From: Candidatus Micrarchaeia archaeon
GTDB lineage: Archaea; Micrarchaeota; Micrarchaeia; Anstonellales; J096
Direction: 5' to 3'
Length of the DNA: 30,941 nucleotides
Assembly (NCBI GenBank): GCA_041500865.1
Contig: JBGQMY010000014.1
Coordinates: forward strand, 1-30,941
In this document: piece after piece, positions 3,001-6,000 of the stretch
Layout: each line of letters opens with the position of its first letter
How positions within the stretch are numbered: position 1 is the stretch's first letter
Position numbers: made by a program

Positions 3001-6000
3001 TAAACGCAACCGGCAGATATCCCTATGAGGTGTTGTACGACGATTTGGGCATATGCGAGGAGAAGTCCCATCTGCTTGCCTTCCTGCTCCGGGAGCTGGG
3101 CTATGGCACGGCCTTGCTGAAATACGACGCTGAAGACCATATGGCAGTCGGCATAAAGTGCGCAGACGATTATGCGTACCGGGGCACGGGATACTGCTTC
3201 GTTGAAACCACGGTTCCGTCCATAATAACGTTCAGCGAAGCCAATTACAGCATCGCCGGAAGGCTGTTGTCCGCGCCCGAGGTGCTGAAGGTAAGCGACG
3301 GCGCAGAGTTCAATGCGGCCGAGGAGTACAGCGACGCCAATGAATGGGAAAGGATAGGCACGGTAGCGGACGAGTCGCCTGGCAGGAGGATACCCGTGGA
3401 CTTGTACAACGAATGGCAAGACCTCGTGCAGAAGTATGGCATTCAGGTGGAGAATGGATGAAGGGTTTATAAATAGTTTGTTAGATAGTGGTATTATATG
3501 GAAGAAAGGATGTTCGGCATTGCCCTTGCCGCGGTGTTGCTGGTTGCACTAGCATCCTATAATACAAGCGCTCCGCAGGCGCCGGCTGCGGCATGCGCCG
3601 ACGGCACGCCGGCCGGCTCCTGTTCAGCATCAAAGCCGTACTTCTGCAACGCCTCGCTGGGCCTTGTTGAAAATGCAAGCGCATGCGGGTGCCCGGAATA
3701 TGAAACAGTCTCCAACGGAAGCTGCACAGCCCAAGAAGGCATGAGGTCATTCAGCTATACGCTAAGGGGCGCGAGAAAAAGCATCATGGTTGGCATGAAC
3801 GGGACTGTTTATGCGTACCTCATGAACACGAGCGAGAAATTTTACTGCGTCAACGGGAGCTGCCCGAGCGAAAGGGACAGGAAGCTTGCGTACATGGACG
3901 AGCCTGTTGAGAAAACGGAACTGATGGAAATCGTGGAGAAGATAAGGGATGGGAGCAACGACAGCGACGACAGGGCAAGGATGGCGATAAGCCTCGTGCA
4001 GAACATCCCGTATGACCTTGGAAAGGCCCAGGGGACGGACATGAGCAGCAGGTATCCCTACGAGGTCCTGTACGACGATTCTGGCATATGCGAGGAGAAG
4101 TCGAGGCTGCTGGCTTTCATGCTCAGGGAGCTTGGCTATGGCACGGCCTTGCTGAAATACGGCGCTGAAGACCACATGGCAGTAGGCATAAAGTGCGCAG
4201 ACGATTATGCGAACTACGAAAGCAACGGCACAGGCTACTGCTTCGTTGAAACCACGGTTCCGTCAATAATGGGCGACAGCAGGGGCAGGTACAGCGGCGG
4301 AAAGCAGATTTCCACCATGCCCACCGTAATCCAGATAAGCGACGGCCTGACGTTCGACGCAGGAAGCATGGAATACAACGACGCAATTGAATGGGAGCAT
4401 ATAATAGAGGAGGCGGATGCCTCCCCTGACAAGGCGGTGGACAATGCAACCTACTCCAAGTGGGTTTCAATGAAAAAGAGATACGGCATCGACTGAGGCA
4501 TTAGTTTAAAAATTGTTGGAAATCCAATTAAAACACTTTTCCGCCGTTTTTGCGGGAAAGAAAAAATATAGAGAGATGGTGTAGATGGATGGAAGAGGAA
4601 GGCCTTTTGGCGAAAGAAAGATGTATCCCGCGAAATGCTCCGACTGCGGAGCGGAATGCGAGGTCCCTTTCGAGCCAAAGCAGGACAGGCCGGTGTATTG
4701 CAGGGAATGCTTCAAGAAGCACAGGAAATTCTGATCCTGGTTGGATTGGGGTTTTTGGGGTTTCGAAATTCGGTCGTTTTTTAACAATTCCCTAGCTTGT
4801 TTTTAAATGGTCAGAAGATAGTCGCATTGCATCAATCATTGTGGTCCTTAATGCTGAATATTGGTGTATGAAAATAGAAAGGATTATTAACGGAGAGGTT
4901 GAAACCTGCTTTGGGTAGGACAAATCGGTTGTCCTTGTAAGAAAGGGATGCCTTCATTGGGGCTTCCGTCAGGCGTTCGGCCATTAGTGCGGTGGACTGG
5001 ACTTTAACTCGCCGTATGAAACCTGCGTCTGGTATCGCTCCCTATGAGGCGAAGGAGATAACCATTAGAGCAAGCGGGAAGGTTAAGACCGTTACCCGCG
5101 TTTGCTTGTGGCACTCTTTCACCGAGTCCAGCTACCCAATTTTTTCCTTCTCCTTGTCCCACTCATGCCTCAGGGCGTCAAGCAGATAGCCTGTGTTCGT
5201 CCCGAAATATCCGGGGCCTTTCTCAAAGACATGGTCAAGAAACTTCTCCGGCCTTTTCCTGAACTCCAAAAACATTTTCGCATCCTCCGCAAATGCGGCC
5301 ATGAGCCTGTCCCCGCCCCTTCTCTCAAACTCAACCGAACGGCCTATTTCCCCGATGTTGACGTTTCCCTTCAGATTGACGTAAACAACGGCGTATGATA
5401 TGCTTTCAACCGGCACGCCATGCATCAGCGAAACCGCCTTCCTGTATATCTCAAGCTGTTTCCTGTGCTCCGTGTCCCTGTCGCCAAGCTTCTTGTCGGT
5501 CTTGTAGTCTATTATCAGGTAGCCTTTCCCGTGCTTGAGTATCGCGTCTATCTTGCCGGTCAGCTTGAAATCCTCGTTTATGCCCAATATCTCCCTTACG
5601 CCTTCAGATATCTCCTGCTCAACCGCGAAAAACGCAAAATCCCCGTATTTTGACTTTATGTCTTCCATGCATTTCAGGAAATTGGCAAATGCCGCCCTTT
5701 CCTCCTGTGTCCTGAGGCTTTCGTCATTATGCAGGCCCTTGCCGTACTGCTCAAACAGGTGGTGCATCCTTGTGCCGAACCCCAGCGCAGACGCCGAGGA
5801 CTCGGAAAACGAGGAAAGCCCGAATACCTTGTTGAGCATGTAGCCGTATGGGTCGTCCACTGCCCCCGTAACTCCTGAAAATGACACATGGTCCAGCTTG
5901 GCGAAGAAGCTGCCTACGATGCCATGCAGCCAGTTGTCCGGCTCTTCCGCGCTGAGCAGCTCCCCGGCCTTCTTGACATCCCTTGAAACGACGTACTTCC

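What a model noticed while it worked through the whole genome (the two positions that open the first line are those of the whole stretch)
4918..5132. A ~215-nt structured noncoding RNA widespread in DPANN archaea, usually paired with a small basic protein
The gap between g00765 and uvrD (+ strand) holds a highly conserved structured RNA bounded by a bulge-helix-bulge (BHB) splicing motif, and it is released as a 208-nt circular RNA (4924-5131). It is a new family spread over Micrarchaeota, Nanoarchaeota (Woese-/Pacearchaeota), Aenigmatarchaeota, Iainarchaeota and some Methanosarcinales bins. In most homologs it sits in the leader of a gene for a small Lys/Arg-rich protein, so it looks like a leader intron kept as a stable circle.
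Evidence so far: No Rfam 15 match even at E<=1. A two-motif pattern hit the 120-row limit in both genome_contigs and metagenome_contigs; 79 of the 80 titled genome records are archaea. In 40 aligned copies 95% of cells pair and 36 of 54 pairs show two-sided changes, against 24.8 in shuffles and 15-23 in slid controls. BHB: the central 4-bp helix is fully paired in 184 of 202 copies, with 3-nt bulges and an outer helix of -6.7 kcal/mol vs -2.3 for swapped partners; here TTGGGTAG pairs with CTACCCAA. Contigs from three metatranscriptomes of three studies show a joint 5131->4924 ('goes back 208'), exactly at the two BHB cut sites; the DNA run shows no such joint, and RNA cover stops at these ends. 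141 of 146 lo [...]
(Added by a program. Inside this text positions count along the whole contig: contig position 1 is position 1 of the stretch shown here. "Call 12" and the like, gene names such as g00115 and contig names such as C1 are that model's own, and its searches are not shown. The text may have been shortened before it was handed on; [...] marks where a part breaks off. The agent that wrote the report below was given it as the finding of a first reader that could run no searches.)

Follow-up and report, generated by a model that had tools for sequence, protein, structure and literature searches.

The report
Spliced circular RNA of tiny archaea
Some tiny symbiotic archaea carry a small stand-alone gene that is cut and sealed into an abundant, intricately folded ring of RNA, usually made together with a short positively charged peptide; it matches no RNA family we could find, and its job is still unproven.

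Summary
Confirmed and extended. 4924-5131 (+) is a 208-nt intron between the two cut sites of a canonical bulge-helix-bulge (BHB); contigs of three metatranscriptomes join 5131 to 4924 exactly. With a pattern holding no BHB letters, the 4-bp helix is fully paired in 115 of 119 copies. Covariation gives a four-way junction with two pseudoknots; one uses the same GUCC that forms the BHB helix, so it needs a partner switch, backed by two three-way compensations. The unit is a self-contained cassette: RNA plus one of two unrelated basic peptides (128 and 20 of 167 scorable loci), and one RNA loop tracks peptide type. Orphan copies (this window) and tandem double copies point to the circle, not just the mRNA, as the product. 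It is patchy (4-11% of genomes per phylum, about half in two families); the 'Methanosarcinales' and 'Iainarchaeota' records tested are label artefacts. No Rfam, Pfam or literature match found. Best reading: a stable circular RNP whose peptide clamps the fold and feeds back on splicing. Its cellular role is untested.

The parts
4585..4734 (+). Upstream neighbour: 49-aa CxxC-x17-CxxC zinc-finger gene (TIGR04272, PF23477); not part of the cassette
   Evidence: no neighbour family recurs in more than 7 of 158 loci
4818..4878 (+). Upstream stretch shared (82-87%) with both RNA copies of a same-genus genome, so it travels with the cassette; probably promoter/regulator sites (inferred)
   Evidence: L004/L034, L014
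4883..4890 (+). Tentative TATA-like ATTATTAA at -35 from GGAC; weaker than the family consensus, which peaks at -40 to -36
   Evidence: family peak 48 hits in 149 loci in that bin; the window's site does not fit the regex used
4911..4917 (+). BHB outer helix, 5' strand (5' exon)
   Evidence: family outer duplex -10.4 vs -4.9 kcal/mol for swapped partners, n=118
4918..4921 (+). BHB central helix, 5' strand GGAC (5' exon); competes with loop L5 for GUCC
   Evidence: 115 of 119 fully paired, 0 of 119 in six slid registers
4922..4924 (+). 5' three-base bulge; cut between 4923 and 4924
   Evidence: joint
4924..5131 (+). The 208-nt circular RNA (excised, ligated intron)
   Evidence: family length 196-234, median 202
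4925..4929 (+). P1 5' strand, pairs 5121-5125; closes the 7-nt ligation loop
   Evidence: G-C to A-U swap in 16 of 122
4931..4949 (+). P2 hairpin; GAAA/GGAA tetraloop in the family, enlarged loop here
4950..4963 (+). P3 5' strand (pairs about 5036-5050), start of the left arm
   Evidence: 9 of 9 core pairs with two-sided changes
4970..4976 (+). P4 5' strand, pairs 5025-5031
   Evidence: 7 of 7 pairs with two-sided changes
4988..4994 (+). P5 5' strand, pairs 5010-5016
   Evidence: 6 of 7 pairs with two-sided changes
4997..5002 (+). L5 kissing strand CUGGAC, pairs GUCCAG 5126-5131 (pseudoknot 2)
   Evidence: C4997-G5131 z 8.7; A-U/U-A swaps in 6 of 122; UGGGC/GCCCA in L145 and L164
5003..5010 (+). 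L5 3' half; UAUAACUC with peptide type 1, UAUACCUC with type 2, drifted (UUUAACUC) in this orphan copy; candidate peptide site
5020..5024 (+). J5/4 strand AACCU, pairs AGGUU 5080-5084 (pseudoknot 1)
   Evidence: U5024-A5080 z 23, U-A 89 / C-G 31
5051..5057 (+). P6 5' strand, pairs 5114-5120; fourth arm of the junction
5058..5063 (+). Conserved internal loop AUAA plus CC/GG pairs (with 5110-5113); typical of type 1, mostly absent in type 2
   Evidence: 23 of 30 type-1 vs 2 of 20 type-2 loci not selected for this motif
5062..5111 (+). P7 arm with terminal loop 5080-5093
5126..5132 (+). GUCC (BHB helix in the precursor, kissing loop in the circle) and 3' bulge; cut between 5131 and 5132
5133..5139 (+). 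BHB outer helix, 3' strand (3' exon); no peptide ORF follows in this genome
5132..7927 (-). Convergent UvrD-type helicase with PD-(D/E)XK nuclease; its stop codon overlaps the first three bases of the 3' exon; not part of the cassette

Best explanation
A dedicated accessory gene whose main product is a stable circular RNA. Steps: (1) a TATA promoter makes a short leader, the 200-nt intron and, in most genomes, a 40-65 aa basic-peptide ORF (inferred from sequence); (2) leader and trailer form a BHB that the tRNA splicing endonuclease cuts and RtcB seals, giving one circle and one peptide mRNA (circle and exact joint shown; enzymes inferred, both present in this genome); (3) the GUCC released from the BHB helix now sits in the 7-nt ligation loop and pairs with internal loop L5, finishing a compact four-way-junction fold with two pseudoknots (pairings shown by covariation; order of events inferred); (4) the co-made peptide binds at or beside this kissing junction, stabilises the fold, and, by favouring the kissing form in the precursor, damps its own splicing (inferred from loop/peptide correlation); (5) the long-lived RNP acts in trans. 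My bet for its role is a storage or regulatory RNP for the host-detached, non-growing state, by analogy with stress-linked large bacterial ncRNAs; that last step is a guess (about 0.25). This window holds an orphan copy that has lost the peptide yet keeps the fold and is circularised in close relatives.
For: Joint at both BHB cut sites in three studies. EndA-family genes and RtcB in the genome. 94.8% of cells paired, 52 of 69 pairs with two-sided changes vs 37.6 shuffled and 21-30 slid. Three-way compensation of exon, 3' end and loop in L145 and L164. RNA and type-1 peptide co-occur by genome: 30 and 29 of 61, both 28; the one full-length RNA there without type 1 has type 2. Protein-first search for type 2: RNA upstream in 5 of 5. 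L5 begins UA in 147 of 148 peptide-bearing vs 6 of 19 orphan loci; AAC in 124 of 125 type 1, ACC in 20 of 20 type 2 (5 of 5 not selected for it). Orphans fold more stably unaided (median z -1.9, n=19, vs -1.1, n=25 sampled type 1; p=0.004). Three loci hold two diverged, intact copies head to tail, each with its own BHB. No other conserved neighbour.
Against: No binding, splicing or functional experiment exists. RNA evidence is assembled contigs of relatives, not raw reads of this strain, and has no valid DNA control. The loop/peptide link is not significant after correcting for relatedness: about 3 pairs for, 0 against, p=0.25. Five of the six kissing pairs never vary in alignment A1, so that helix rests on few events. 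The window copy departs from consensus at 8 of 94 near-invariant columns, among the lowest 7 of 123 (two are an alignment shift), which could mean decay. No spliced mRNA joint was seen. No target or partner was found.
Confidence: 0.55

Rival explanations
1. A cis-acting splicing switch: the intron senses a ligand or the peptide, chooses between BHB and kissing folds, and so gates peptide expression; the circle is a by-product.
For: Mutually exclusive pairing of GUCC (kissing duplex -10.1 vs central helix -3.8 kcal/mol as isolated duplexes). Start codon within 15 nt of the 3' cut in 31 of 148 loci. Precedent: a spliced 5' UTR BHB intron in Haloferax HVO_1309 (PMC7714728, passages).
Against: 19 of 167 scorable loci have no peptide yet keep the fold; this window has a convergent gene directly downstream; tandem double copies; abundant circle in relatives of an orphan copy.
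Confidence: 0.15
2. The circle is a ribozyme and the peptide is its cofactor, as maturases or RNase P proteins are for theirs.
For: Size, two pseudoknots and 23 columns unpaired in the mature model at 97% or more conservation (one is an exon base).
Against: No known catalytic motif; no complementarity to the host's 16S, 23S, tRNAs, SRP or RNase P RNA beyond shuffles, no 14-mer match elsewhere in the genome; the joint fits protein-catalysed BHB splicing.
Confidence: 0.13
3. The kissing contact is between molecules, so circles assemble into dimers, rings or cages coated by the basic peptide (compatible with the best explanation; differs in architecture).
For: The L5 loop lies at the tip of an arm of about 25-30 pairs while its partner is 5 pairs from the junction, so an intramolecular contact needs a sharp fold-back (inference). 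Tandem diverged copies. GOLLD, ROOL and OLE form oligomers through covarying kissing loops (PMC12286853, abstract).
Against: Two internal loops could hinge the arm; covariation cannot tell intra- from intermolecular.
Confidence: 0.12
4. A toxin-antitoxin pair in the style of type III: a toxic cationic peptide held in check by the RNA from the same transcript.
For: One transcript, RNA first; RNA without peptide is common (19 of 167) and peptide without RNA rare (1 of 29 genomes); patchy presence; tandem RNA copies.
Against: The RNA is a stable circle, whereas antitoxins are usually labile (recalled); orphan RNAs persist with intact folds across three genera; two unrelated peptides; mostly vertical tree; absent from the virus, phage and plasmid sets searched.
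Confidence: 0.07
5. A selfish mobile intron or a relic group I intron now spliced by EndA.
For: Variable context, patchiness, second copies; the GACU/AGUC helix and an AAGAUA stretch recall group I P7 and J8/7 (recalled likeness); the idea that BHB introns derive from group I introns is in print (PMC6125680, passages).
Against: No Rfam group I hit; last base is G in 161, U in 14, A in 3 of 178, unlike an obligatory terminal G; no homing or transposase partner recurs; 12 of 16 Micrarchaeota-titled rows form one starred clade.
Confidence: 0.04
6. A circularly permuted housekeeping RNA (SRP or RNase P), as in Thermoproteus.
For: Same processing route as the Thermoproteus SRP RNA (PMC4731332, passages).
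Against: The genome has its own SRP and RNase P RNA matches (both below gathering score); RNase P RNA is found in 59 of the 61 genomes where the circle is in 30; no likeness in any rotation.
Confidence: 0.01

Closest known systems
Circular SRP RNA of Thermoproteus tenax (PMC4731332, passages seen)
   Same: Own TATA promoter, short leader pairing with trailer into a BHB, cut by the splicing endonuclease, ligation restores a functional loop needed for protein binding.
   Different: That RNA is a permuted known family in one genus; this one matches no family, coexists with an SRP RNA, spans three DPANN phyla and carries its partner peptide on the same transcript.
Archaeal mRNA BHB introns: Haloferax HVO_1309 5' UTR (46 nt) and crenarchaeal cbf5 (PMC7714728, passages; PMC2738675, search listing)
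   Same: BHB intron in an mRNA leader, excised and circularised.
   Different: Those are short and not described as conserved folded RNAs; here the intron is four times longer, far more conserved than its exons, and survives without its gene.
Large ornate bacterial ncRNAs OLE, ROOL, GOLLD, raiA (PMC12286853 abstract; PMC9723947 and PMC10861870 search listings)
   Same: Abundant, pseudoknotted, patchily distributed RNA of unknown biochemistry, with partner proteins (OLE) and covarying kissing loops.
   Different: Bacterial, linear, no sequence or Rfam match; not made by splicing.
Group I introns (PMC6125680, passages; motifs recalled)
   Same: Compact multi-pseudoknot intron RNA, also present in DPANN rRNA genes.
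   Different: No model match, no obligatory terminal G, different helix order, BHB ends.
Type III toxin-antitoxin cassettes (recalled, no call)
   Same: Pseudoknotted RNA, sometimes repeated, ahead of a small protein gene in one transcript.
   Different: Processing here is by host EndA-type splicing into a circle; the peptides have no nuclease family match.

Membership tests
Archaeal BHB intron | Central 4-bp helix flanked by 3-nt bulges | tested here: met
   115 of 119 fully paired, 0 in slid registers; 165 of 178 in the wider set
Archaeal BHB intron | Cuts after the second base of each bulge; intron circularised | tested here: met
   Joint 5131->4924 in 3 of 4 runs
Archaeal BHB intron | Exons ligated | tested here: inconclusive
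   No exon-exon joint; the runs do not cover the flanks
Archaeal BHB intron | Cut by EndA, sealed by RtcB | not testable with these tools
   Both enzymes encoded
Any Rfam 15 family | Score at gathering threshold | tested here: not met
SRP RNA (permuted) | Match to RF01857 or to the genome's SRP RNA; canonical gene missing | tested here: not met
RNase P RNA | Match to RF00373; universal presence | tested here: not met
Group I intron | Invariant terminal G and U-G wobble at the 5' splice site | tested here: not met
   Last base G 161, U 14, A 3 of 178; base before the 5' cut is A, U, G or C; feature list recalled
Guide RNA (C/D, H/ACA, antisense) | Complementarity to a cellular RNA | tested here: not met
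   Longest perfect matches within shuffle range for rRNA, tRNA, SRP, RNase P; G-U tolerant and bipartite guides not tested
Viroid-like or viral RNA | No DNA form; ribozyme; occurrence in viruses | tested here: not met
   Chromosomal in over 100 genomes; 0 hits in IMG/VR with three patterns
Type III toxin-antitoxin | Toxic protein neutralised by the RNA | not testable with these tools
   No Pfam, NCBIfam, PHROGs or PDB match for either peptide

The most novel reading that the evidence does not exclude
A new class of archaeal ribozyme or RNA machine that exists only as a circle: splicing is the on-switch that completes its active fold, interchangeable basic peptides act as its dedicated cofactors, and the circles may assemble into multimers.
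Probability: 0.3. Interest if true: 0.93.

Novelty: categorically new. Interest (0 to 1): 0.82.

Why it matters
Large, pseudoknotted, conserved RNAs are rare and have often proved to be ribozymes or core machines (recalled). In the papers I read, archaeal circles are processing intermediates, tRNA introns, C/D RNAs, omega RNAs or one permuted SRP RNA. This would be a conserved family built to be a circle, whose fold is completed by the splicing that releases it, kept by organisms with genomes near 1 Mb. The processing route is known (it is a BHB intron); the RNA class, the partner switch and the two peptide families are not ones I could find described. It is small enough to test at once in vitro.

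Tried and rejected
Permuted SRP or RNase P: rejected. Guide function: no complementarity above chance. Viral, phage or plasmid carriage: none in the sets searched; a protein-based search of the viral set could not be run. A third pairing, J4/5 with the 3' half of loop L7: supported in type 2 (0 of 300 swaps as good, loosely chosen windows) but not in type 1 (91 of 300); left out of the model. My first guess, GGCC 4980-83 with GGUU, was replaced by the stronger AACCU/AGGUU signal. The P6/P7 internal loop as the type-1 peptide site: only partly tracks it (7 of 30 type-1 loci lack it, 7 of 13 orphans keep it). AlphaFold of the type-2 peptide: pLDDT 55, unusable, so no fold search. ESM Atlas: only unnamed clusters. 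X2 as DNA control: uninformative. The Saccharibacteria-titled hit: 1 of 26 genomes in its family, in a bin about twice the family's size, taken as contamination. Count details: one search dropped 1 of 120 matches (L081, decayed 3' end); one search set aside 11 loci with too little downstream sequence; searches scanned the 49-aa neighbour in a wrong frame and are superseded. Likeness to hairpin ribozyme, 23S helix 69 and group I motifs was recalled, not supported. Earlier-findings look-ups returned nothing.
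Full report
Observation. The stretch reads as a textbook BHB in the window: outer helix 4911-4917/5133-5139, central helix GGAC 4918-4921/GUCC 5126-5129, three-base bulges 4922-4924 and 5130-5132, inner helix 4925-4929/5121-5125. 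The rule of a 4-bp helix with 3-nt bulges is stated in PMC4731332 (passages); cutting after the second bulge base is recalled. It predicts an intron 4924-5131 of 208 nt. Four of the six runs offered were laid at 80% likeness: X1, X3 and X4, from three studies, each have a contig going from 5131 back to 4924 with no ambiguity, and X4 has loose ends at both boundaries that read as the opposite end. These are assembled contigs of relatives; they cannot show strand or level. X2 has no joint but covers neither flank, so it is no control. A DNA tandem repeat is an unlikely cause: the three joints come from different sequence variants, and a real DNA duplication of the cassette (L224) has other end points. 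The + strand is fixed by BHB geometry, G-U pairs and the downstream ORF in homologues.

Family. In 119 copies (118 of these plus the window) the central helix is fully paired in 115, against 0 in each of six slid registers; the outer duplex averages -10.4 kcal/mol against -4.9 for swapped partners (n=118) but is often not flush with the bulge. Alignment A1 has 122 distinct rows at 69% mean identity. A blind G-test over all column pairs returns the helices as its top hits. On my 69-pair model 94.8% of cells pair, and 52 pairs have two-sided changes against 37.6 in shuffles and 21-30 in slid controls. The model was drawn from this alignment, so the slid control flatters it.

Architecture. P1, P2, P3 and P6 meet in a four-way junction. 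The left arm is P3-P4-P5, the right arm P6-P7. Pseudoknot 1 joins AACCU 5020-5024 to AGGUU 5080-5084 (U-A 89, C-G 31 at one pair). Pseudoknot 2 joins CUGGAC 4997-5002 to GUCCAG 5126-5131. GUCC is also the 3' strand of the BHB helix, so it must change partner from the exon's GGAC to loop L5. Five of these six pairs never vary in A1; the sixth is swapped in 6 rows and broken in 10. Outside A1, L145 and L164 change loop, 3' end and exon together. A possible third contact is supported only in type 2.

Partner peptides. A K/R-rich ORF with core GRxPSxKxKxSKVKKLIKLAK follows in 124 of 152 loci with enough flank, median 30 nt after the circle, median 53 aa, 49% K+R. In one Nanoarchaeota family sample the RNA is in 30 and this peptide in 29 of 61 genomes, both in 28. 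Divergent RNA copies with a different right arm carry an unrelated four-cysteine basic peptide. A metagenome pattern for their loop variant gave 20 loci, all confirmed by the model. Searching with that peptide first found 4 of 401 and 1 of 301 genomes, with the RNA upstream in 5 of 5; it has 41 clusters at 50% identity, all small. Neither peptide matches Pfam, NCBIfam, PHROGs or PDB in the members scanned. Of 178 parsed loci, 128 are type 1, 20 type 2, 19 orphan, 11 too short to tell. The L5 3' half begins UA in 147 of 148 peptide-bearing and 6 of 19 orphan loci, and reads AAC in 124 of 125 type 1 and ACC in 20 of 20 type 2 (15 of those were selected for ACC). On a tree this shrinks to about three independent pairs, all in the same direction, p=0.25; so it is a lead, not a result.

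This copy. The window's RNA is an orphan: neither peptide was found in the 92% complete genome, and the convergent helicase ends on the 3' exon. It keeps 66 of 69 pairs but has 8 of 94 near-invariant columns changed. Orphans as a group fold more stably unaided, as expected if the peptide is a folding aid, though GC content is slightly higher too. Three of 87 loci rescanned carry two intact copies 79-89% alike, 22-29 nt apart, each with its own BHB; in L021 both precede one peptide gene.

Distribution. Model R1 found 17 of 151 genomes in the window's phylum (14 of 27 in one family), 14 of 151 in the Nanoarchaeota sample and 4 of 101 in the Aenigmatarchaeota sample, scoring only 15-22 candidates per genome, so divergent copies may be missed. 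RNase P RNA was found in 59 of the 61 genomes where the circle is in 30, so patchiness is not an assembly gap. One of four 'Methanosarcinales' records was tested and sits in a family that overlaps the Nanoarchaeota sample; all four nest among Nanoarchaeota rows in the RNA tree. The single 'ainarchaeum' record shares the window's phylum. The tree groups 12 of 16 Micrarchaeota-titled rows in one starred clade, with others scattered, so descent is largely vertical with loss and some duplication or transfer (bootstrap not settled). No neighbour family recurs in more than 7 of 158 loci, and 115 nearest neighbours span unrelated functions.

Mechanism. Shown: fold, BHB, circle, linkage to two peptides. 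Inferred: own promoter (TATA-like peak at -40 to -36 from GGAC; some site between -60 and -30 in 76 of 149), cutting by EndA and sealing by RtcB (both encoded), partner switch, peptide binding near the kissing junction with feedback on splicing. Guessed: a role in the non-growing state. Rivals are a pure splicing switch, a ribozyme, an oligomeric cage, a type III-like toxin-antitoxin pair and a group I relic; see the rival list.

What is known. It is a BHB intron by every feature I could test, and fails membership of SRP, RNase P, group I, guide and viroid-like classes. Closest in working is the circular SRP RNA of Thermoproteus (PMC4731332, passages); closest in position is the 46-nt HVO_1309 leader intron (PMC7714728, passages). 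Nine literature searches listed nothing describing this RNA. I read passages of PMC12558985, PMC12918454, PMC6125680, PMC10085705 and bioRxiv 2022.07.19.500677, the abstract of PMC12286853, and the abstract, passages and section 2.5 of bioRxiv 2026.10.21.760802. The last clusters all prokaryotic intergenic DNA, so the motif may sit unnamed in its database; the 2022 preprint's unannotated circles may also hold it. I read no supplements, and subscription journals are mostly outside the library.

Verdict. Real, well supported, and as far as these searches reach a new class of conserved circular RNA with co-evolving peptides. Interest 0.82.

Noticed in passing
window 11008-11185 (+): tRNA-Ser(CGA) with a long structured intron of about 90 nt, missed by the default tRNA scan; several other tRNAs of the genome also carry introns.
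   Followed up: no
window 4818-4878: Upstream stretch shared by both RNA paralogues of a same-genus genome although their flanking genes differ.
   Followed up: partly
L021:2193-2642; L100:219-669; L128:1-454: Tandem pairs of diverged, intact RNA copies in one apparent transcript.
   Followed up: yes
L224:2300-2990: Exact 333-bp tandem duplication of promoter, RNA and the start of the peptide ORF; may be an assembly artefact.
   Followed up: partly
L209:1501-1611; L223 near 1490-1600: Peptide-like ORF remnant without the RNA, in a near-identical stretch in two genomes, with no clear start codon.
   Followed up: partly
L205:1716-1909: Only the right half of the RNA remains before an intact peptide gene; the left arm is replaced.
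   Followed up: no
L231, L236, L237, L244: Type-2 start codon only 2-4 nt after the 3' cut, so splicing would place the exon's GGA just before AUG.
   Followed up: no
L098:597-672: An SRP RNA gene begins right after the cassette; a few other loci lie beside tRNA genes.
   Followed up: no
L221 (G000:C1:57069-59729): RtcB match is split inside a 933-aa frame, suggesting an intein or other insertion.
   Followed up: no
L219 and L220: Two splicing-endonuclease-family genes, 347 aa and 148 aa, in one genome.
   Followed up: partly
window 1998-3461 and 3498-4496: Two adjacent transglutaminase-like genes upstream of the locus.
   Followed up: no
L039, L053, L063, L074, L055, L051: Record titles (Methanosarcinales, ainarchaeum, Saccharibacteria) disagree with placement or bin size in the three cases tested.
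   Followed up: partly
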